Positions 10,397 through 17,192 of a DNA stretch of 64,000 bases are shown here, piece after piece. The stretch lies in NCBI GenBank assembly GCA_963724765.1, contig CAVRVY010000003.1, positions 992,001 to 1,056,000 of the forward strand, read 5' to 3'. Source of the stretch: an uncultured delta proteobacterium. GTDB taxonomy: Bacteria; Desulfobacterota; Binatia; Binatales; Binataceae. The stretch's first letter is position 1. Each line of letters starts with the position of its first letter. Made by a program: the position numbers and the translations under genes. Under the pieces are notes generated by a model, which did no database searches, had not been told where the DNA came from, and saw nothing but the letters and a program-made list of their open reading frames with translations.

Positions 10397-10531
10397 CCCG
10401 GCTGTTACTCGGCCGCGCATCTCTTACCCTCTAAAAACGCGCCGATTGGTTCCCGGCTTTCTGCCGTCCTCCACAAACGTCGTGTACTCGATTGGCGAAA
10501 GCGTGCGGGCTCGCAAAAACTTAAAAAAAGG

Positions 10532-10547
10532 AGTACAGCTCTGTACT
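10532..10547. promoter_or_regulatory. Perfect inverted repeat AGTACAG-CT-CTGTACT, putative operator of the cassette's HTH regulator
   Basis: Ends 8 nt before ATG 10556, following an A-rich tract. Confidence 0.55.
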
Positions 10548-10555
10548 AGATCTTT

Positions 10556-11056
10556 ATGGCAGAACAACACTTTGGGATCGGTAAAGCCGCCCACCTCAGC
10601 AAACTAGGGCGAGCAATGGTCGATTACCTCTGCCGCTCCAACGTCCTCGTGCCCTCCAAGGGCCCGCACCCGGGCCGGGGTAAGGGTCGCCAGTACAGTT
10701 TCGGTGACGTGGTGATGTTACGGGCGCTGAGCCACCTGCTGAAATCCGGCATATCTGTCGCTAAACTGAAGAAAGCGCTCGGAACACTGCGAGCCAGACA
10801 TCACGAGATTACCCTGGAGAAAGCCCCGAAGTATCTCGTTACCGACGGAACTCGGGTTTATTTCGATGACGGCGGGAACGCGGTCGAAGAGCTTTCGGCA
10901 AACGGCCAGATGGTGTTTGCGTTTATCATAAAGTTGAGTCAGGTTCGCGATGATGTGACGAAAGCTCTAAGCAGGTCCGAGACTACCGCGCACCGCAATC
11001 AGGCTGCGAACATACGCTCAGGTCGACGCCGCTCTCTCAACAAGGGCGCGAACTAG
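10556..11056 (+). CDS. MerR-like HTH transcriptional regulator, first gene of the accessory cassette
   Basis: FGIGKAAHLSKL...VDY...PS...GRGKGRQYSFGDV..LR....L...GIS is a typical MerR HTH pattern. Confidence 0.8.
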   Translation: MAEQHFGIGKAAHLSKLGRAMVDYLCRSNVLVPSKGPHPGRGKGRQYSFGDVVMLRALSHLLKSGISVAKLKKALGTLRARHHEITLEKAPKYLVTDGTRVYFDDGGNAVEELSANGQMVFAFIIKLSQVRDDVTKALSRSETTAHRNQAANIRSGRRRSLNKGAN

Positions 11057-11093
11057 TCTCCATCGCAGAAGTACCGACAATGGGGAGCACGTT

Positions 11094-11744
11094 ATGGTCT
11101 CGCAACAAGCGCTCGAAAAGGTCATGCAACTCTCGAACGCCACTTCCGGTCCTGACGGTCCGCGTGCAATCACCGTCCAAGAGCAGCTTCTCGCTCTGCA
11201 ATGGGCTCAGCTCAAACATGATGAGCTCTATCACAAGGAGATCACTCTTCTTCCCGTCGCCGATCGGATGAAGCATTTTGCCCTGCACATGGCGAAGTAC
11301 CTTGGTTATTTCGCCGAGGCCATCGATGCCGACAGCGACCGCTTTGAGCGGACGTTGGTCGACGCCTTCATCATTACGCTGGCGTCCGCGAACACGCTTA
11401 ACTTCGATCTCGGCAAAGCCCTCGGCTGGCAAGAAAATACAGCGCCAGTAAATTTCAAAGCGTTTGGCATTGAACTGGCGACACAGTGCTTCCCTCGAGG
11501 TGAGGATAAGACCTGGTTTCTAAAACAATTTGCTCGCCACTGCGGTCGGCTGGCCAAGGCTTGCGAATCGCTCGATCATGTCGAAAGCCACCCCTTTCGA
11601 GAGGCGATGCTCGCAAGCGTTCTAGATATGTTCAAACTCCTTGTCGCAGAAGGCACGGTTCATCAGATTGATCTTGTCAACAGAGCGAGGGAGCGCCTCC
11701 GTAGCGTGGAAACGAAGAACATCTTTTACAGCTACTATAAGTAG
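11094..11744 (+). CDS. Hypothetical all-alpha protein, probably two tandem MazG/NTP-pyrophosphatase-like repeats with degenerate acidic motifs
   Basis: Repeat 1 HMAKYLGYFAEA...TLVDAF...ANTLNFDL; repeat 2 ARHCGRLAKAC...SVLDMF...HQIDLVNRARERLRSVE, resembling GEL.EA...E.AD...GIDL..A..KL. Confidence 0.5.
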   Translation: MVSQQALEKVMQLSNATSGPDGPRAITVQEQLLALQWAQLKHDELYHKEITLLPVADRMKHFALHMAKYLGYFAEAIDADSDRFERTLVDAFIITLASANTLNFDLGKALGWQENTAPVNFKAFGIELATQCFPRGEDKTWFLKQFARHCGRLAKACESLDHVESHPFREAMLASVLDMFKLLVAEGTVHQIDLVNRARERLRSVETKNIFYSYYK

Positions 11745-11758
11745 CATCGGTAGACCGG

Positions 11759-12646
11759 ATGGCTTTCTGGAGCGGCGAGACTCTTCTCGACAAATTGCCG
11801 GGGCTGATTACTCCGTTCAACCCAGACAATATTGATTGCGCCTCATATACTCTGACGATCGGCCGCGAAATATACGTATCTCCGACCGAAGAAACGCCCG
11901 ATCCGAAATCCACGACAAAGAAGCTACTTGGGTCAGGTGAAGCTTTCTGCATTCCACCCGGGCAATTTGCATTTCTAGTGACCGAGGAGATCGTCACAAT
12001 TCCGCGCAATGCGATCGGACTGATTTCAATGAGGGCTAAGATCAAGTTCAAAGGCTTGGTCAACGTCTCAGGTTTCCACGTTGATCCCGGGTATAGAGGG
12101 CAGCTAACGTATTCCGTTTTTAATGCTGGACCTGCGACGGTCCATTTGGAACAGGGCGAGTCATGCTTTCTGATCTGGTATGCCTACCTCGACCGTGAAT
12201 CTGACAAGGTTAAGAATGATCCCATTCAGAGAGGCTTAAATCCGGACCGCATCAACAGCATTTCGGGTGAACTTCATTCTCTAGAGGCATTAGCGAAGAG
12301 CATTAAGTCTGCTGAGCTGTCATTTACCGACCGTCTGCATAGTCTCGATCAGACTCTCGCCGAGCGGCAACATCGTCTCGAGCAGTCAGTTGGCGAACGT
12401 ATGCATGCTGTCGAAAGCACTCAATCCTACTACAATGCGGTAACGTACATTGGAATTGCGATAGTAGCGGTGATCGTTGGTGCCTCTTTGGATAATTTCT
12501 TCCGTTCGCCATCTCCACCAGTGCAACTGGTGGTTCCGTCTACAGGCGCTGTCGCCGTGGTTCCATCCCCCAGTGTTCTCGCCTTGCCGTCCGCACACCC
12601 CCAACTTACGCAAGCTCCGCATTCTACCCCGTCAAACAGCAAGTGA
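11759..12646 (+). CDS. dCTP deaminase/dUTPase-fold protein with C-terminal coiled coil, TM helix and Pro/Ser-rich tail
   Basis: ASYTLTIG, IPPGQFAFLVTEE, GFHVDPGYRG, VFNAG; hydrophobic AVTYIGIAIVAVIVGASL at about aa 227-244. Confidence 0.85.
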   Translation: MAFWSGETLLDKLPGLITPFNPDNIDCASYTLTIGREIYVSPTEETPDPKSTTKKLLGSGEAFCIPPGQFAFLVTEEIVTIPRNAIGLISMRAKIKFKGLVNVSGFHVDPGYRGQLTYSVFNAGPATVHLEQGESCFLIWYAYLDRESDKVKNDPIQRGLNPDRINSISGELHSLEALAKSIKSAELSFTDRLHSLDQTLAERQHRLEQSVGERMHAVESTQSYYNAVTYIGIAIVAVIVGASLDNFFRSPSPPVQLVVPSTGAVAVVPSPSVLALPSAHPQLTQAPHSTPSNSK

Positions 12647-13674
12647 CCCGAGACGCTCTTCTCGAGAAGTATGCAGTGGTGACTCCGACCTATACGCCTG
12701 TGTTCGATAACTATTGGCAGTTCGCGGTTGAGCGCCAAGAGATGTTCTATCGTCGCCTCAACCATCCGATCGGGCCGTGGACCGACGACACCATTCTTCG
12801 CTCCTATCGGTTCACAAACGCGTATCGCGCCTCAGATCGCGTTAGCCAATATCTCATCCGAGAGGTCCAGTATCGGTCAGATCGGCTGCAATCGCCGCCG
12901 GAGCTGTTTTTTCGGACGTTGCTGTTCAAGATTTTTAACCGAATCGAGACTTGGGATGAAATCGAACGTGAGGTGGGTCCGGTTCTTTGGGAAAGAATCG
13001 ACCTTAACGTCATAGCGCGTGCGCTCGGATCGATGATGCAGCGCGGCATACCCGTCTACTCTGGAGCTTACATAATGCCCGCGCCACCGTTCGGCCGAAG
13101 CAGAAAGCACGAGAATCATCTCGCCCTTCTCGCGCGCATGATGGACGACAGGCTACCTGATCATCTGGAACGGGCCACCTCACTCAGACAAGTCTACGAA
13201 GCCCTGCTTGCGTACCCCGGAATTGGCTCCTTTCTCGCGTTCCAATACACGATCGATCTCAACTATTCGCTCCTCCTCAATTTCAGCGAGGGCGATTTCG
13301 TCGTCGCCGGACCCGGCGCGCTTGACGGTATCGCCAAGTGCTTCGAGAGCATTGGGAAAGCTGCTCCCGAAGATATCATCTCCTGGACCGCGGAGCGTCA
13401 GGACGCCGAATTCGCGCGACTCGGCCTGAGGTTTCAGGACTTATTCGGGCGTCCGCTCCAGCCCATCGACTGTCAGAACATTTATTGCGAAATCGCCAAG
13501 TACGCTCGTGTGTCGCATCCAGAGCTTGCCGGAGTCTCCGGCAGACGGCGTATCAAGCAAAAATTCCATCCAAATCCTCGCCCGATCCCGCCGCTCATGT
13601 ACCCGCCAAAATGGGGCCTCGCAGTTTCCGCGGAAATTGACAGGCGCGGGTCTGACCTGCGGGCCGGTTTCTGA
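12643..13674 (+). CDS. aGPT-Pplase1 / 5-hmdU DNA kinase helical-domain family protein (putative DNA base hypermodification protein)
   Basis: ERQEMFYRR..GPWTDDTIL..YRFTNAYRASDRVSQYL, YSGAYIM, HhH-like YPGIGSFLAFQY, VAGPGALDG, IDCQNIYCEIAKY; GTGA overlap with the upstream gene. Confidence 0.85.
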   Translation: MTRDALLEKYAVVTPTYTPVFDNYWQFAVERQEMFYRRLNHPIGPWTDDTILRSYRFTNAYRASDRVSQYLIREVQYRSDRLQSPPELFFRTLLFKIFNRIETWDEIEREVGPVLWERIDLNVIARALGSMMQRGIPVYSGAYIMPAPPFGRSRKHENHLALLARMMDDRLPDHLERATSLRQVYEALLAYPGIGSFLAFQYTIDLNYSLLLNFSEGDFVVAGPGALDGIAKCFESIGKAAPEDIISWTAERQDAEFARLGLRFQDLFGRPLQPIDCQNIYCEIAKYARVSHPELAGVSGRRRIKQKFHPNPRPIPPLMYPPKWGLAVSAEIDRRGSDLRAGF

Positions 13675-13681
13675 CGCCGAA

Positions 13682-16174
13682 CTAGTGGAACAGTTTATTC
13701 AGCGCACCGCCTAGCGGGTTGCTGCTCGAGGACCCGTTCTTGGAATTGCCGCCGAGGAATTTGTTGAGTAAGCTGCCCGCCTTCTTCTGCATCAGATGCC
13801 CGGCGGCGCGCTGAGCCAGGAACTGGATGTCCGGCTGCACCGAGGGCTTGGGCAACTGTCCGCTAATTCGCACCGGGATATCGATCTGCTTTTGATCGTT
13901 GGCCAGGTAAACCACGTTCTTTTTCTGGGACATCAGCTCGCCGCTCAGCTCCTTCGACAGCAGAAGATGCGCGTTCATGTCGATGTTCTTGTCCAGGTCG
14001 AACCATCCGTCGGCCAGCGCACTGTAATCGGGCGTCGACGCCTTGATGTCGTGCGAGGTGATTTTGGGCCCCTGGATCACACACGTCAGGCTTAACTCGG
14101 TCAGATTGGTGTCGGGCGAATTGAACAGCGTGGGATGACGCGCGACGATCGACGGCGTAATCAGCGTATTGATGCCCGGCAGGCCCTGCACTTTGCGCAT
14201 CGCCTGCGCGGCGATGTTGACGCCGATGAGCTTGCCGTTGGCGACCGCCATCTGGCCGTTGCCGCTAAGCGTCGGCTTGATCTTGTCAAAGGTGGCGCCG
14301 CGGCCTTCCACGCGCACCTGCCCCGTCAACTGCCCGCGTACCGTGTCGGCGGCCTTGGATTTCTGCGATACCAGCGCCTGTTGCAGGTCGATCCCGTGGA
14401 GATTCAGCCCCACATTGAAGACCGGCTCGGCGCCGAGCGTGGCCCGCGCGTTGCCGTCGAGCGTACCGCTGAAAGCTGCCACCTTGAGCGAGCTGATAGT
14501 CACGGCCTGCCCGCCATAAGTCGCGTCGACGGCGAGGTTGCGATACGCAATGTTTTGCGCAGTGCCGGAGGGCGACGTCACTCTCGCGGTCACCGTCGGC
14601 GCGGAAGTGCTGCCCCGGACCGTGCCTTTGACCGCCAGTTGGTCGAGGTGGTCGGCCGCCGTCCCGGGCTTGGGATTGGCGGTCAGCTCGGCCGGCTTCA
14701 CCACGTCGGCGCCGAAATCATAGCTCGCGACTATCGGCTGAATCGATTGCGCGTTGACCGTCAGCCTGGCGTGGCCCGATCCGAGGTTGAACGCCAACGG
14801 ACCCGCCACGGCGCTCTTGCCCGCCATCTTGATGTCGCCGCTGAGTCCGCCCACGATCGCGCGCTTGCCCGGCGGCGTGACGGTCACCGAGGCCAGGGTC
14901 ACGACGCCGTTTACCTCGGGCCGCTTTTGCACCAATTTGACCAGGGCATGAATCTCGGCCTTGCCCGAGGCATTGTACTTGCTGAGCGCGACCAGCATCT
15001 TGCCCATCGAGGCGAGGTCGAACCGATTGCTGTCCACCCGCGCACTGAGGTTCTGGCCGAGCTGAATCTGTCCAGCCTTGAGATTGAGGTCGCCGAGCAC
15101 GAGCGTCGCGCTCTGGATTTCGACCTGCGGCCCCGCTCGGCTGTCTTTTCGCGTTCCGACGGCCGCGAGCTTGAGCGGCACGCCCTCCGCCTTATCGAGC
15201 ACGCCGGTGTATATGACCTGGTTGCCGGTCAGGTCGGTCGTGAGGTTAAACGCTATCGTTTGGATAGTGCCGTCAACCTTGGCGCTGGCCGTGACGGGAT
15301 TGGTCAGCTTGAGTTCCGGCGGCAGCGCCTTGGCAATTTGCGGCACCGCCTTGAGCTGGGCCATCGTGAACGGTCCAAGGTCTAGGCTGAACGCGAGCGG
15401 TATGGCGCTCATATCGATCGCGCCGTTGGTGATTAAAGGCCCGACCTTGCCGGTTAGCGAAAGATTTTTAGTCGTGCCCAGCGCCGCCAAGCTCAGCTTG
15501 ATGTCGACCGGCGTACTGACGCCAAGATTCTCGACGTCCAGGTTGACCGCGCTCACCGTGACCGGCGCCGCGCCCGCGTCCTGATAAACGATCGTGGCAT
15601 CCTCGACGGTCAGGCTCGAGATCGACACTTCGCCGAGCGCTCCCGCGCCCGCCGACGGTTGTCCCGGGGGCTGCGCCTCAGTAAGCGGAGCTGCCTTAAG
15701 CGGCCGCGTGCCGGTGGCCGCCGGCGGCGTGGCCGGCGTGGGGGCCACGGGCTCGCCAGTGGAGGATTTCTTCCCGAGGCTGCCGACGTTCAATTGGCCG
15801 CGCTGGTTGCGGATGATGTGCACGACGGGCTGCTTGAGCGATACCTGATCGATCTCGACGCGGCGGCTCAGCAACGGCATCAACGCGACCCGCGCATAGA
15901 CATCCGCGGCCTCCACGAACGGCGTCTGGGAGAAATTCGGGTCATCCGCGATCGTGACACCGCGGAGATCAGCGATCACGCCCCATCCGAGGCTTGCGTG
16001 GATGTCCTGAACGTCGACCTTGCGGCCGACCGCGTCGCTGGCCTTGGTCAGGATGAGGCCCCGCTGCTTCTGGATGATTCCGTTGAGGTTGAGCACGGCG
16101 TAGAACCCTACCGCGATCACGACCACCACGACGATGCCGACCACGATGATGACTGTCCGGATGAGCTTGCGCAT
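13682..16174 (-). CDS. AsmA-family protein
   Basis: N-terminal TM anchor (MRKLIRTVIIVVGIV...), IADDPNFS..PFV.A, long beta-rich body, IPVRISG.L.KP C-terminus. Confidence 0.85.
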   Translation of the reverse strand: MRKLIRTVIIVVGIVVVVVIAVGFYAVLNLNGIIQKQRGLILTKASDAVGRKVDVQDIHASLGWGVIADLRGVTIADDPNFSQTPFVEAADVYARVALMPLLSRRVEIDQVSLKQPVVHIIRNQRGQLNVGSLGKKSSTGEPVAPTPATPPAATGTRPLKAAPLTEAQPPGQPSAGAGALGEVSISSLTVEDATIVYQDAGAAPVTVSAVNLDVENLGVSTPVDIKLSLAALGTTKNLSLTGKVGPLITNGAIDMSAIPLAFSLDLGPFTMAQLKAVPQIAKALPPELKLTNPVTASAKVDGTIQTIAFNLTTDLTGNQVIYTGVLDKAEGVPLKLAAVGTRKDSRAGPQVEIQSATLVLGDLNLKAGQIQLGQNLSARVDSNRFDLASMGKMLVALSKYNASGKAEIHALVKLVQKRPEVNGVVTLASVTVTPPGKRAIVGGLSGDIKMAGKSAVAGPLAFNLGSGHARLTVNAQSIQPIVASYDFGADVVKPAELTANPKPGTAADHLDQLAVKGTVRGSTSAPTVTARVTSPSGTAQNIAYRNLAVDATYGGQAVTISSLKVAAFSGTLDGNARATLGAEPVFNVGLNLHGIDLQQALVSQKSKAADTVRGQLTGQVRVEGRGATFDKIKPTLSGNGQMAVANGKLIGVNIAAQAMRKVQGLPGINTLITPSIVARHPTLFNSPDTNLTELSLTCVIQGPKITSHDIKASTPDYSALADGWFDLDKNIDMNAHLLLSKELSGELMSQKKNVVYLANDQKQIDIPVRISGQLPKPSVQPDIQFLAQRAAGHLMQKKAGSLLNKFLGGNSKNGSSSSNPLGGALNKLFH

Positions 16175-16385
16175 CACGAGATCCTTTCCCGCCCCGAGGA
16201 GAGTGTATTCTCCACCGAAGCGGGCGCTATGCCAACGCTGCGGCGGCTGTATGGCTCGGCCTTCTGTCGCGCGCGCGATTTTTTCAGGCCGGCCAGGGAG
16301 GCGGCATACCAGTGAAGCGGCATACGTCGTCGCGAGCGGCGCCATGATGCGTATCCTCGCAACAAACGGTAGGCTTTATTCTCAA

Positions 16386-17192
16386 ATGGCCAAGAGGCGA
16401 AAGACCCATCCGCCGCGCAAGGCCCCCGCACCCAGGCCGAAGGCCGAGAAGCCAGCCTTCAGCTCGCCGTTCAAGGACTTAAAGAAGCTGCTGGTCGAGC
16501 GGCCGCATCCCAAGACCCCCGACAAACCGTCGGGCAAGGCCCCGGCCAAAACCCCAGACAAAATCCCGGCGGCTGCCGTGGCCACGCCGATAGCGGAGTC
16601 AGAAGCGGCACTCGACGATGCCACGATGTTCCGCCAGGCCGTCGACGGGGTGCGCCGGCTGGGCGACCAGCGTCCTATGCGCATCGTCCCCAAGCATGAG
16701 GTGACGCTGGAAATCGTTAGCGAAGATGCCGAGGTTCTTGCACAGCTATCGGACCTGGTTTCCGGAGTGGGAGCCTTCGAGCTGACCGAGACCGAGGAAT
16801 ATACCGAGGGGACGCGCCTCGGTCTCGACCCGCGGCTGGTGACGCGCCTTCGCCGGTGTGAATTCGCGGTGCAGGCGCATATCGACCTTCATGGGATGAT
16901 CCAGGCCGACGCCAAGGCGGCACTCGAGGGATTTATCTTAAACTCGGTGCGCAAGGGACTGCGCGCGGTGCTGGTGGTGCACGGCCGCGGCCTGCGCTCG
17001 CCGGGCGGGATGCCGGTGCTCAAGCATGCCGCGTCTCAGTGGCTCTCGCACGGGCACATGGGCGGATACGTGCTGGCGTTTGCGACCGCGCGGCCGGCTG
17101 ACGGCGGTGCGGGTGCGATGTACGTGCTGCTCAGGCGGGATCGGCGTCGGGCCAAATTCGACGTTCTGCAAGGCGCCAAGCGCCGCGACTGA
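16386..17192 (+). CDS. Smr/MutS2 C-terminal domain protein (SmrA/SmrB-like)
   Basis: IDLHG, VVHGRGLRS..G.PVLK, AFATARPADGGAGAMYVLL. Confidence 0.9.
   Translation: MAKRRKTHPPRKAPAPRPKAEKPAFSSPFKDLKKLLVERPHPKTPDKPSGKAPAKTPDKIPAAAVATPIAESEAALDDATMFRQAVDGVRRLGDQRPMRIVPKHEVTLEIVSEDAEVLAQLSDLVSGVGAFELTETEEYTEGTRLGLDPRLVTRLRRCEFAVQAHIDLHGMIQADAKAALEGFILNSVRKGLRAVLVVHGRGLRSPGGMPVLKHAASQWLSHGHMGGYVLAFATARPADGGAGAMYVLLRRDRRRAKFDVLQGAKRRD

What the first reader, a model, noticed from the sequence alone, without database searches (positions are those of the whole stretch)
11759..12646. dCTP-deaminase fold lacking its catalytic residues, fused to coiled coil and TM helix: possible nucleotide sensor-effector
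Seen: the nucleotide-binding HVDPGYRG motif is intact. By manual alignment to E. coli Dcd, GRSSLARLGL reads MRAKIKFKGL (Ser111 to Ala, Arg115 to Phe), DPGWSGCIVLEFYN reads DPGYRGQLTYSVFN (Glu138 to Ser), and the motif-4 Gln is missing (GESCFLIW). After the domain come about 55 aa of heptad-like sequence, one TM helix (about aa 227-244) and a Pro/Ser tail. Known: Dcd and dUTPase are soluble trimers that need these residues. Inference: a trimeric dNTP-binding receptor that passes a signal to, or oligomerises in, the membrane, or an enzyme with altered chemistry.
Basis: partly seen in the sequence, partly recalled or inferred. Interest (0 to 1): 0.78.

Follow-up and report, generated by a model that had tools for sequence, protein, structure and literature searches.

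The report
Membrane-anchored dead dUTPase-like defence subunit
This gene encodes a dUTPase/dCTP-deaminase-shaped protein that has lost the residues for both known reactions and is tethered to the membrane by a helical stalk, and it belongs to a small mobile gene cassette that probably protects bacteria against phages.

Summary
The ORF at 11759-12646 (+, 295 aa) has a confident Dcd/dUTPase fold (Z about 21). It lacks the Dcd catalytic residues. It also lacks dUTPase motifs I, II, IV and V, and keeps only motif III and the base hairpin. A long helix with 11-residue repeats follows, then one TM helix and a Pro/Ser tail.

These losses are fixed across 126 family sequences, while a new set of pocket residues is nearly invariant.

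The family is large: 768 clusters at 50% identity. It always has this architecture.

In 73 of 80 genome loci it sits with two partner types:
- an HMUDK_hel or UDG-like protein;
- a MazG/MazG_C or p216 protein.

The window carries the minimal form, MerR-p216-DcdTM-HMUDK_hel. This is a 3.2-kb low-GC insertion, not found in 40 relatives.

Related cassettes lie beside Gabija, restriction-modification (RM), AbiE and Shedu genes. They share HMUDK_hel, TS, TIR and Nmad2 with DS-4, an experimentally validated E. coli defence system.

A homotrimer model passes its controls.

Best reading, about 0.4: a non-catalytic, membrane-tethered sensor of deoxyuridine-type nucleotides that acts as the output subunit of an anti-phage module. 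A tether role and altered chemistry remain open.

The parts
10445..13681 (.). 3.2-kb low-GC insertion (cassette) between the MutS2 and AsmA-like genes
   Evidence: Same-genus genome G005 has 35 bp where the window has 10445-13681 (blastn). GC3 of the island genes is 0.53-0.66, against 0.76-0.85 for the flanking genes. GC is 0.55-0.57 against 0.62-0.70. The DcdTM gene was not found in any of 40 relatives at E<=1e-20.
10534..10547 (+). Palindrome GTACAG-CT-CTGTAC just upstream of the MerR-family gene. A candidate operator, untested.
   Evidence: Read directly from the sequence. No test was run.
10556..11056 (+). MerR-family HTH protein (166 aa), the presumed regulator of the cassette
   Evidence: Pfam MerR_1 at E 2.9e-6, 27.7 bits against a cut-off of 21.6. 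No homologue was found in any of the 80 related loci.
11094..11744 (+). p216, a 216-aa protein of unknown family. It occupies the gene slot that MazG/MazG_C fills in most related cassettes.
   Evidence: It has no Pfam, NCBIfam or PADLOC family, and matches phrog_19333 at 2.6e-16. It has 959 homologues, all named hypothetical. It occurs next to DcdTM in 13 of 80 loci. An Atlas feature search gives a lead only: dUTPase_2 at 0.91 and MazG at 0.88. hhalign against MazG/MazG_C is not significant. Invariant His/Asp/Glu positions were seen in alignment A7.
11759..12193 (+). DcdTM beta domain (aa 1-145), Dcd/dUTPase fold. It lacks the catalytic residues and keeps motif III.
   Evidence: VIA-align gives Z 21.1 to 2qxx_A, and Z 20.8 with rmsd 1.5 A over 147 of 147 residues to 8y1w.
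12242..12433 (+). DcdTM helical stalk (aa 162-225), with 11-residue repeat units
   Evidence: AF2 gives a single helix at 162-247. The trimer model shows contacts every 3-4 residues from 175 to 222. The number of repeat units ranges from 1 to 5 among 64 homologues, at spacings that are multiples of 11.
12437..12493 (+). DcdTM transmembrane helix (aa 227-245)
   Evidence: Kyte-Doolittle 19-residue window scores 2.04. A comparable segment is present in 64/64 and 125/126 homologues.
12494..12646 (+). DcdTM Pro/Ser-rich tail (aa 246-295), predicted extracytoplasmic, plus the stop codon
   Evidence: pLDDT is below 60. Family tails have a median length of 26 aa and are 22% Pro, 15% Ala, 13% Ser and 9% Thr. 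The K+R bias favours an N-in topology.
12643..13674 (+). HMUDK_hel protein (343 aa): the helical domain of 5-hmdU DNA kinases, without a P-loop kinase domain. Its start overlaps the DcdTM stop (GTGA).
   Evidence: Pfam PF18723 at E 5.1e-105 over residues 18-296. No Walker A motif. The overlap was read. A homologue lies within 6 kb of DcdTM in 66 of 80 loci.

Best explanation
SHOWN BY SEQUENCE, MODELS AND COMPARISON.
- The gene encodes a pseudo-enzyme of the Dcd/dUTPase fold. It forms, by prediction, a homotrimer held on a trimeric helical stalk. It is tail-anchored in the inner membrane, with the nucleotide-type pockets in the cytoplasm.
- It is one gene of a mobile module with three constant members: this protein; a DNA-base-directed protein (HMUDK_hel, or a UDG-superfamily protein in its place); and MazG/MazG_C, or p216 in its place.
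- The window carries the minimal module plus a MerR-type regulator.

INFERRED.
- The module is an anti-phage system of the same broad kind as DS-4 of DeWeirdt et al. 2026. DS-4 has TS, a kinase, HMUDK_hel, TIR and Nmad2, and was validated in E. coli.
- Within it, DcdTM is the sensing and output subunit.
- Its inter-subunit pockets keep the deoxyribose and pyrimidine side (D109, Y/F112, N122). The triphosphate and catalytic side has been rebuilt (K96, H107, C27, E7).
- These pockets bind, without turning over, a deoxyuridine-type nucleotide that appears or accumulates during infection. Candidates are dUMP, dUTP or a 5-modified dU nucleotide. The source would be the phage or, in larger cassettes, the TS-like enzyme.
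- Occupancy is passed down the in-register stalk to the three TM helices. This perturbs the membrane, or releases or activates the partner proteins, and stops the infection.

ODDS. About 0.75 that it is a non-catalytic, membrane-tethered subunit of a defence-type module. About 0.4 for the specific chain from nucleotide sensing to a membrane output.
For: Catalytic loss.
- Dcd residues E138, S111, R115, H121 and R126 are replaced. dUTPase motifs I, II, IV and V are also replaced.
- Over 126 distinct family sequences there is no Glu at the E138 position, no Arg at the R115 position, no Asp at the motif I position, no Gln at the motif IV position, and 1 Ser at the S111 position.
- D109, K96 and S174 are in 126/126. 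H107 and N102 are in 125. W4 is in 125. C27 is in 122. E7 is in 118.

Fold. Z is 20-21 to Dcd, Dcd-Dut and archaeal dUTPases, and Foldseek E is 2.5e-12.

Trimer.
- ipSAE is 0.79 (median of 3 runs) against a best control of 0.00.
- The runs agree in at least 69% of contacts, and partner pLDDT is 71-78.
- In the tool's calibration, 20 of 30 proteins solved as pairs of one chain reached the mark, and 1 of 23 solved as single chains did.
- The interface joins residues 1-8 and 25-29 of one chain to 86, 109-111 and 144 of the next. The stalk touches every 3-4 residues from 175 to 222.
- Solved Dcd and dUTPase trimers exist, so the beta-domain part of this pass may come from likeness to them.

Membrane.
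- A TM helix is present in 125/126.
- There is more K+R before the TM than after it in 95 of 125 sequences, and the reverse in 7.

Constant architecture.
- 768 representatives score E<=1e-30, and the top 150 are 132-362 aa long.
- No fused form longer than 517 aa was found.

Context, over 80 loci.
- HMUDK_hel or UDG: 76.
- MazG/MazG_C or p216: 74.
- Both: 73.
- TS-like: 66.
- The same minimal triad occurs on an Acinetobacter 26-kb plasmid.

Link to defence.
- DS-4 holds TS, adenylate kinase, HMUDK_hel (PF18723), TIR and Nmad2, and is listed as validated and replicated (supplement passages; text).
- In 5 of 80 loci DcdTM sits with a ThsB-type TIR plus Nmad2.
- Neighbours include Shedu, AbiE, Gabija, DISARM-like helicase, and Type IIG and Type III RM genes. 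PADLOC hits at E<1e-20 fall in 11 of 42 loci scanned; no baseline was run.

Mobility. 0 of 40 relatives carry the gene. The insertion is clean. GC3 is foreign. Nine plasmid records carry family members.

Housekeeping. The genome has a separate canonical Dut.
Against: - No experiment exists on this family, and no nucleotide binding is shown.
- The four island proteins hit no PADLOC model.
- The TM helix is weakly conserved (0.51) and has no invariant polar residue. That suits a plain anchor.
- Stalk length varies from 1 to 5 repeat units. A strict allosteric wire might not tolerate that, although whole 11-residue units keep the register.
- In 5 loci a TIR protein is also present and could be the real effector.
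- The minimal triad holds no recognisable signal-making enzyme.
- The biochemical roles of p216 and HMUDK_hel are unknown.
- The defence-island enrichment has no control.
- Defence by DS-4 was seen only in supplementary rows and one sentence of text, and its mechanism is unknown.
Confidence: 0.4

Rival explanations
1. Membrane tether or scaffold. DcdTM does not kill or signal. It holds the DNA-directed partner (HMUDK_hel or UDG-like) and the MazG/p216 partner at the inner membrane. There they meet phage DNA or nucleotides at the site of genome entry, which gives a spatial way to tell self from non-self.
For: - TM and tail are the least conserved parts (0.51 and 0.34, against 0.81 for the domain), and stalk length is variable.
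- A DNA-base-directed partner is almost always present (76/80), as is a MazG/p216 partner (74/80).
- The DcdTM stop and the HMUDK_hel start overlap in the window.
- Precedent: SNIPE, a constitutively membrane-bound defence nuclease that cuts phage DNA during injection (abstract read).
Against: - A mere tether would not need an invariant pocket: D109 and K96 in 126/126, H107 and N102 in 125/126.
- Gene adjacency to HMUDK_hel is not conserved, since most loci place MazG and ACPS between them.
- No binding between the proteins was tested.
Confidence: 0.22
2. Enzyme with altered chemistry. The rebuilt inter-subunit site (C27, H107, D109, E7, K96, N102) catalyses a new reaction on a pyrimidine nucleotide. 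One possibility is a Cys-dependent step on a 5-substituted dU nucleotide. The substrate could instead be membrane-associated. The reaction would feed or complete the pathway formed by the TS-like, MazG/MazG_C and HMUDK_hel proteins.
For: - Residues of catalytic type are nearly or fully invariant. The trimer model puts 25-29 and 1-8 of one chain against 109-111 of the next.
- The other genes of the larger cassettes are enzymes. The TS-like protein matches CMP 5-hydroxymethylase at E 5e-4 and TS at 5.8e-4, and its invariant Cys aligns with the position I recall (from no call) as the TS-family catalytic Cys. MazG and MazG_C were found.
- Cys plus Glu chemistry on C5-substituted uracil is proposed for aGPT-Pplases (passage read).
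Against: - All metal, phosphate and water ligands of both known reactions are gone.
- A tail anchor and a long stalk are unusual for a nucleotide-pool enzyme.
- The window's cassette lacks the TS-like and MazG_C genes. Neither was found in the 97%-complete genome with single-protein queries. No pathway is therefore evident here.
Confidence: 0.15
3. The cassette is not a defence system. It is a DNA-base modification or repair pathway for the cell's own DNA, and DcdTM is an accessory subunit of it.
For: - Proteins of the HMUDK_hel type are named 'putative DNA base hypermodification protein' in RefSeq (name seen in the supplement row).
- TS-like, MazG and UDG are classic nucleotide and DNA metabolism folds.
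- The phage pathways that use 5-HMUDK modify DNA.
Against: - Distribution is patchy and mobile: 0/40 relatives, and MazG/MazG_C in 5 of 301 genomes of one order.
- Family members occur on plasmids.
- Neighbours are Shedu, AbiE, Gabija and RM genes.
- XRE plus M78 peptidase regulators are present.
- TIR partners occur.
- The DS-4 relative was validated as a defence.
- The window's HMUDK_hel has no kinase domain.
Confidence: 0.1
4. Regulatory pseudo-dUTPase. Like the phage dUTPases that bind the SaPI repressor Stl, DcdTM binds the cassette's repressor (MerR here, XRE elsewhere). It sequesters the repressor at the membrane or releases it, depending on nucleotide occupancy.
For: - Solved dUTPase-Stl complexes exist (titles of 7pwx and 8p8o).
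- Cassettes nearly always carry an HTH regulator: XRE in 59/80, and MerR in the window.
Against: - The regulators are not homologous between variants. MerR166 was found in 0 of 80 loci.
- XRE pairs with its own M78 peptidase, which already explains its control.
- No interaction was tested.
Confidence: 0.07
5. An ordinary housekeeping dCTP deaminase or dUTPase, as the database names say.
For: - Sources name the family 'dCTP deaminase'.
- No other Dcd-like gene passes the cut-off in this genome.
Against: - It scores below both curated cut-offs.
- The catalytic residues of both enzymes are absent in 126/126.
- The genome has a canonical Dut.
- The gene was not found in any of 40 relatives.
- It carries a TM anchor.
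Confidence: 0.02

Closest known systems
E. coli dCTP deaminase Dcd (PDB 1xs1) and bifunctional Dcd-Dut enzymes (2qxx, 4xjc, 1pkk)
   Same: Same beta fold: Z 19.8-21.1 over about 160 residues. Same predicted trimeric assembly with pockets between subunits. The D128 and W131 equivalents are kept.
   Different: E138, S111, R115, H121 and R126 are all replaced. The C-terminal lid is replaced by an 85-residue helix that includes a TM segment. The score is below the TIGR02274 cut-off.
Archaeal Dcd-like dUTPases (Thermococcus pacificus 8y1w, 'P45' 9ln0/9ln3)
   Same: Best sequence and structure match: E 7.5e-11, Z 20.8, rmsd 1.5 A over 147/147 residues. They also lack the Dcd glutamate.
   Different: They keep the motif I Asp, motif II RSS..R and motif IV R..Q, whereas the window protein has T, RAK..F and S..L. 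Their chains are 147-156 residues long, with no room for a stalk or TM helix.
DS-4 ('NTTI') of DefensePredictor (DeWeirdt, Mahoney, Laub, Science 2026; PMC13092281)
   Same: It contains a stand-alone HMUDK_hel protein of about 340 aa (PF18723) and a thymidylate-synthase-family protein, as most DcdTM cassettes do. It also has TIR plus Nmad2, as 5 of 80 DcdTM cassettes do. The same paper lists MazG, MazG-C, dUTPase and UDG domains among predicted, unvalidated systems.
   Different: By its gene list, DS-4 has no Dcd/dUTPase-fold protein and no MazG. The window's cassette has no TS, kinase, TIR or Nmad2. The DS-4 mechanism is unpublished in what I read. I could not see Fig. 6F, so I cannot tell whether one of its predicted systems is this cassette.
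Known 'dCTP deaminase' anti-phage defence (PADLOC dCTPdeaminase)
   Same: It is a defence acting on the pyrimidine dNTP pool.
   Different: The fold and architecture differ. A reference protein labelled dCTPdeaminase in the paper's supplement carries P-loop nucleotide kinase and APOBEC/CDA-type domains (passage). The window protein hits no PADLOC model at E<=0.1.
Ligand-gated TM effectors of signalling defences (CARF-TM effectors such as those of Panoptes or Cam1, Cap15, PycTM, Macro-TM ThsA)
   Same: The architecture has the same logic: a cytoplasmic nucleotide-binding domain joined to one or a few TM helices in an oligomer.
   Different: The sensor fold is unrelated. No cyclase or other signal maker is seen in the minimal cassette. 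These comparisons are recalled, except that a CARF-TM effector paper (PMC13577387) was seen as a search listing only.
Phage dUTPase-Stl signalling (SaPI derepression)
   Same: It is a precedent for a dUTPase fold used as a signalling protein rather than for catalysis. dUTPase-Stl complexes are solved (titles).
   Different: Those dUTPases are active, soluble and phage-encoded. Beyond the PDB titles this rests on recall.

Membership tests
dCTP deaminase (Dcd, TIGR02274) | Trimeric dUTPase-like beta fold | tested here: met
   Z 19.8-21.1 to Dcd and Dcd-Dut structures. Trimer model ipSAE 0.79 against a best control of 0.00.
dCTP deaminase (Dcd, TIGR02274) | Catalytic Glu138, Ser111, Arg115 and His121 (E. 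coli numbering) | tested here: not met
   These positions read S119, A93, F97 and N102. Over 126 family sequences there are 0 Glu, 1 Ser, 0 Arg and 0 His at them.
dCTP deaminase (Dcd, TIGR02274) | Score over the curated equivalog cut-off | tested here: not met
   73.2 bits against a cut-off of 92.8.
Trimeric dUTPase (TIGR00576 / NF001862) | Motifs I (Asp), II (Arg-Ser), IV (Arg..Gln) and V (C-terminal Gly-rich arm) | tested here: not met
   Motif I is T31, motif II is RAK..F, motif IV is S..L, and motif V is replaced by the helix. Over 126 sequences there is no Asp at the motif I position and no Gln at the motif IV position. The score is 26.2 bits against a cut-off of 102.55.
Trimeric dUTPase (TIGR00576 / NF001862) | Motif III Asp and aromatic residue (deoxyribose side of the pocket) | tested here: met
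   D109 in 126/126. Position 112 is Y in 88, F in 37 and W in 1.
HMUDK_hel-centred nucleotide defence cassettes (DS-4-like) | Stand-alone HMUDK_hel (PF18723) protein in the operon | tested here: met
   Window 12643-13674 matches at E 5.1e-105. The DS-4 protein has PF18723 over 27-324 of 340 aa (supplement passage).
HMUDK_hel-centred nucleotide defence cassettes (DS-4-like) | TS-family enzyme, nucleotide kinase, TIR and Nmad2 partners | tested here: not met
   None is in the window's cassette. c2 and MazG/MazG_C homologues were not found in the genome with single-protein queries. Among related loci, TS-like is in 66/80, MazG_C in 61/80, TIR in 5/80 and Nmad2 in 6/80.
HMUDK_hel-centred nucleotide defence cassettes (DS-4-like) | Protection against phage when expressed | not testable with these tools
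   A bench test is needed. No RNA run is listed as a holder either.
Ligand-gated TM defence effectors | Ligand-binding domain fused to TM helix or helices in an oligomer | tested here: met
   This covers architecture only.
Ligand-gated TM defence effectors | Cognate signal-making enzyme in the operon, and membrane damage on activation | tested here: inconclusive
   No cyclase-type gene is present. A ThsB-type TIR is present in 5 of 80 loci. Membrane damage is not testable here.

The most novel reading that the evidence does not exclude
A dead dUTPase-fold trimer on a helical stalk is a new class of tail-anchored, nucleotide-gated membrane sensor and effector. It reads deoxyuridine-type nucleotides, possibly 5-modified ones typical of phages with non-canonical thymidine. 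It triggers the response of a widespread, so far uncharacterised anti-phage module. The constant partners of that module are an HMUDK_hel or UDG-like protein and a MazG/p216-type protein.
Probability: 0.3. Interest if true: 0.8.

Novelty: new variant of a known kind. Interest (0 to 1): 0.62.

Why it matters
Databases name about 770 sequence clusters of this family 'dCTP deaminase', although none keeps the residues for that reaction or for dUTP hydrolysis. Those annotations are wrong in kind.

The family marks a recurrent, mobile gene module. The module is tied by shared parts to a defence system that was validated in E. coli without a known mechanism. Working out what the dead, membrane-tethered dUTPase fold binds could show how this group of nucleotide-centred systems senses infection. 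In particular it could show whether they target phages that use dU, 5-hmdU or hypermodified thymidine.

It would also add a new sensor fold to the known set of nucleotide-gated membrane proteins.

Tried and rejected
Family and homology searches that gave nothing.
- PADLOC gave no hit for any of the four island proteins at E<=0.1.
- The search for related loci with the single protein found no relative, because its peptide patterns were too specific. The alignment query worked.
- No fused form over 517 aa was found. This is weak evidence, as the tool itself says.
- For p216: Pfam on 11 members showed no recurring family. PDB profile searches gave only E 0.55-0.8 to an NTP pyrophosphohydrolase. 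hhalign against MazG/MazG_C gave probability below 1%. Homology of p216 to MazG is therefore not shown.
- The HMUDK_hel profile found no credible relative in the PDB.
- An Atlas search for DcdTM, leaving out its own Pfam families, found nothing at or above 0.8.

Structure prediction.
- Prediction of HMUDK_hel or p216 was not possible.

Mutual exclusion of DcdTM and TIR/Nmad2.
- This idea was tested and rejected. They co-occur in 5-6 of 80 loci.

Expression and population data.
- No RNA holder is listed.
- Contigs of four soil or peat metagenome runs cover the island and bridge both junctions. No empty-site joint was seen.

Island structure.
- No flanking direct repeats or att-like sites were found.
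- Promoter and terminator scans were no better than shuffles.

Literature.
- Searches found no paper describing this family.
- One candidate preprint contained none of the search terms.
- Burroughs et al. 2015 and Iyer et al. 2013 are not held. These may discuss such cassettes, and a prior description there cannot be excluded.
- The PDF supplement and the figures of PMC13092281 could not be read.

Earlier findings.
Full report
THE GENE AND ITS FOLD

The ORF at 11759-12646 (+) encodes 295 aa. It matches Pfam DCD at E 3.7e-17. It stays under the curated NCBIfam cut-offs for dCTP deaminase (73.2 against 92.8 bits) and for dUTPase (26.2 against 102.55).

An AlphaFold2 model built on 64 homologues has mean pLDDT 84.8. 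It shows a beta domain at 1-143 and a single helix at 162-247.

Foldseek and VIA-align place the domain firmly in the Dcd/dUTPase fold:
- Z 21.1 to M. tuberculosis Dcd-Dut;
- Z 20.8, rmsd 1.5 A over 147 of 147 residues, to Thermococcus pacificus dUTPase with dUMP;
- Z 19.8 to E. coli Dcd.

CATALYTIC RESIDUES

It adds H121 to N102 and R126 to H107.

The closest relatives are archaeal dUTPases that themselves lack the glutamate, so I also compared the five dUTPase motifs:
- motif I Asp is T31;
- motif II RSS..R reads RAK..F;
- motif III (D109, Y112) is kept;
- motif IV R..Q reads S..L;
- motif V is replaced by the helix.

The same genome encodes a canonical 148-aa Dut that passes its cut-off (183.8 against 103 bits) and shows all five motifs to the eye.

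Over 126 distinct family sequences the losses are universal. No sequence has Glu, Arg, Asp or Gln at the E138, R115, motif I or motif IV positions.

A different set of residues is fixed:
- K96, D109 and S174 in 126/126;
- H107, N102, N122 and W4 in 125;
- C27 in 122;
- E7 in 118.

This is purifying selection on a rebuilt site, not decay.

STALK, TM HELIX AND TOPOLOGY

The best hydropathy window is aa 227-245 (KD 2.04). A comparable segment exists in 64/64 and 125/126 homologues.

Lys and Arg are more frequent before the TM than after it in 95 of 125 sequences, and the reverse holds in 7. Tails are short (median 26 aa) and rich in Pro, Ala, Ser and Thr. This indicates a tail-anchored protein with the domain in the cytoplasm.

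The stalk holds 11-residue repeat units. Most homologues have one, the window has three by eye, and others have up to five. Spacings are always multiples of 11.

Conservation falls along the protein: 0.81 in the domain, 0.70 in the stalk, 0.51 in the TM and 0.34 in the tail.

TRIMER

Three copies of aa 1-250 gave ipSAE 0.79 (median of three runs), against 0.00 for the best of three controls. The runs agreed in at least 69% of contacts, and pLDDT was 71-78.

The tool's calibration counts are 20 of 30 proteins solved as pairs of one chain and 1 of 23 solved as single chains, and they hold only roughly here.

Dcd and dUTPase trimers are solved, so the pass for the beta domain may reflect that likeness. 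The stalk contacts (175 to 222, every 3-4 residues) have no such template.

The invariant N-terminal FWSGE and the D26-C27 pair of one chain touch residues 109-111 of the next. The new conserved residues therefore line the inter-subunit pocket.

THE FAMILY

An exhaustive profile search of 1.84 billion representatives found 768 with E<=1e-30, 1257 with E<=1e-10 and 3742 with E<=1e-3. The best 150 are 132-362 aa long.

The word-indexed search gave 3637 hits. All 120 listed carry PF22769 and are 220-344 aa long, and where they are named they are called 'dCTP deaminase'. No long fused form was found.

By record titles the 80 genome loci come from Alpha-, Beta- and Gammaproteobacteria, Acidobacteriota, Binatia, Actinomycetota, Gemmatimonadota, Eremiobacterota-type bins and Flavobacteriales.

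Nine plasmid records hold family members. Phage records hold only canonical Dcd or dUTPase at about 30% identity.

GENE CONTEXT

In genome contigs, 436 stretches encode a relative, and I studied the best 80 with 6-kb flanks. Component counts by tblastn:

| Component | Loci of 80 |
|---|---|
| HMUDK_hel | 66 |
| UDG-superfamily protein | 10 |
| HMUDK_hel or UDG | 76 |
| MazG with MazG_C | 61 |
| p216 | 13 |
| MazG/MazG_C or p216 | 74 |
| One of each pair | 73 |
| TS-like protein | 66 |
| M78 peptidase | 63 |
| XRE | 59 |
| ACPS | 45 |
| Small carrier-like proteins (three families) | 40, 10 and 9 |
| C1 peptidase | 19 |
| TIR | 5 |
| Nmad2 | 6 |

Of the loci without partners, L043, L047 and L077 are cut by contig ends.

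The TS-like protein has no Pfam hit. A 33-sequence profile finds CMP 5-hydroxymethylase at E 5e-4 and thymidylate synthases from 5.8e-4. Of 28 hits, 26 are TS-family proteins. Its invariant Cys aligns with the position that I recall, from no call, as the catalytic Cys of that family.

The window has the minimal form: MerR166, p216, DcdTM and HMUDK_hel. Three of the 80 loci and an Acinetobacter 26-kb plasmid share the p216-DcdTM-HMUDK_hel triad.

The window's HMUDK_hel is the helical domain alone. No Walker A motif occurs in any of the four proteins.

MOBILITY

The four genes form a 3.2-kb block with GC3 of 0.53-0.66, against 0.76-0.85 in the flanking genes.

The same MutS2/AsmA junction varies within the genus:
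- a same-genus genome has 35 bp there;
- a second has 325 bp;
- a third holds an unrelated 285-aa ORF.

The gene was not found in any of 40 relatives: 16 of the genus, 8 more of the family and 16 of the class. Their completeness ranged from 74 to 100%.

MazG/MazG_C occurs in 5 of 301 sampled genomes of one alphaproteobacterial order.

LINK TO DEFENCE

DeWeirdt et al. (PMC13092281) list among 42 validated systems one with a 5-hydroxymethyluracil kinase domain and a thymidylate synthase (text passage).

[quoted passage not shown] It is marked as replicated, with a row for phage lambda.

The same text names MazG, MazG-C ('a predicted nucleotide kinase'), dUTPase, aGPT-Pplase and, in the figure legend, UDG among predicted and unvalidated systems. 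It credits Burroughs et al. 2015 with earlier predictions. I could not read that paper or the figure.

DcdTM cassettes are tied to DS-4 by shared parts. In Pseudomonas syringae pv. cilantro the order is DcdTM, HMUDK_hel, MazG/MazG_C, ThsB-type TIR, Nmad2, next to a SLOG plus TIR pair.

Three genomes with MazG/MazG_C but no DcdTM carry these combinations:
- UDG, MazG/MazG_C, Nmad2 and TIR;
- MazG/MazG_C, UDG and Nmad2;
- MazG/MazG_C, UDG and TS-like.

Neighbours of DcdTM cassettes include Shedu on a conjugative Bradyrhizobium plasmid and AbiE inside the cassette in four loci.

I scanned 115 flanking ORFs of at least 250 aa, out of 181, drawn from 42 of the 80 loci. Twenty had PADLOC hits at E<=1e-10, in 14 loci. 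Fifteen had hits at E<1e-20, in 11 loci. These hits include Gabija, a DISARM-type helicase, Type III and Type IIG restriction-modification genes, SIR2 and AbiT. I ran no baseline, so this is suggestive only.

WHAT IT MOST LIKELY DOES

Shown: a non-catalytic (by known chemistry) Dcd/dUTPase-fold protein, predicted to be trimeric and tail-anchored, with a conserved rebuilt pocket. It is always found with a DNA-base-directed partner and a MazG/p216-type partner, in a mobile cassette.

Inferred: the cassette defends against phages, and DcdTM is its nucleotide-sensing, membrane-coupled subunit.

I put about 0.4 on sensing of a deoxyuridine-type nucleotide passed through the stalk to a membrane or partner output.

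Points against this reading:
- the weakly conserved TM helix;
- the variable stalk;
- the co-occurrence with TIR in a few loci;
- the lack of any signal-making enzyme in the minimal triad.

The rivals are a passive membrane tether for the partner proteins (0.22; SNIPE is a precedent for membrane placement as a way to target phage DNA, abstract read), a new enzymatic activity of the rebuilt site (0.15), a DNA-modification pathway rather than a defence (0.10), a repressor-binding regulator (0.07) and a normal Dcd or Dut (0.02).

NOVELTY

Six full-text searches found no paper that describes a Dcd/dUTPase-fold pseudo-enzyme with a stalk and TM helix. The two Aravind-group papers most likely to touch on it are not held. 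One 2026 paper predicts, without validation, systems with some of the same domains.

I rate it a new variant of a known kind. The fold is known, and the defence theme is known in a related system. The architecture and role are uncharacterised.

Noticed in passing
L008:940-1251, L059:6709-7062, L052:2221-2547 (related loci), with ACPS at L003:5464-5883(-): Most large DcdTM cassettes carry a 4'-phosphopantetheinyl transferase (Pfam ACPS, in 45/80 loci). They also carry one of three families of proteins of about 100 aa with an acyl-carrier-like DS(L/K) motif, in 40, 10 and 9 loci. A carrier protein with its own PPTase inside a nucleotide-centred cassette is unexplained. The carrier assignment is by eye only, since Pfam gave no hit.
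   Followed up: partly
L083 (Bradyrhizobium elkanii plasmid pK03D-1) 2503-4205; cluster c9 in 19/80 loci: A papain-family C1 peptidase lies next to a protein that RefSeq names 'protease inhibitor I42 family'. That protein is homologous to my M78/ImmA-like cluster. Together with the XRE regulator, this suggests a protease-based switch for the cassette.
   Followed up: no
L045, L050, L053, L056, L059, L065, L069, L073, L076, L083: A UDG-superfamily protein takes the place of HMUDK_hel in 10 of 80 loci, with otherwise the same partners. This hints that HMUDK_hel has a DNA-base-directed role like that of a glycosylase.
   Followed up: partly
window 12329-12433 (aa 191-225 of DcdTM): The stalk contains 11-residue repeats of the type xRxHxxExxxx. 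The copy number differs between homologues (1 to 5), always in whole units.
   Followed up: partly
window 12278-12280 (Ser174 of DcdTM): Ser174, at the top of the stalk, is invariant in 126/126 sequences. Given the PPTase in many cassettes, a modified serine is conceivable. Nothing was tested.
   Followed up: no
window 10397-10444 and 13675-13690; L093:4092-4949: The MutS2/AsmA-like junction is a variable spot in this genus. It is 35 bp in one relative and 325 bp in another. A third holds a 285-aa ORF that looks by eye like a SAM-dependent methyltransferase. The window holds the 3.2-kb cassette there.
   Followed up: partly
window 11094-11744 (p216): The p216 family has an invariant His/Asp/Glu-rich set of residues (H42, D43, H47, H61, H65, D90, E158, D161, H162, E164). 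This looks like a metal site. The family has about 960 members, no name and no Pfam model.
   Followed up: partly
L033:10645-12647(-): In Pseudomonas syringae pv. cilantro the DcdTM cassette lies after pheT, next to a SLOG (LD_cluster2) plus TIR_2 gene pair. The site looks like a small defence island.
   Followed up: no
window 16134-17192 (+): An ORF of 352 aa whose C-terminal part looks by eye like an Smr domain lies two genes from MutS2, whose C-terminal part also looks Smr-like to the eye. Not tested with any tool.
   Followed up: no
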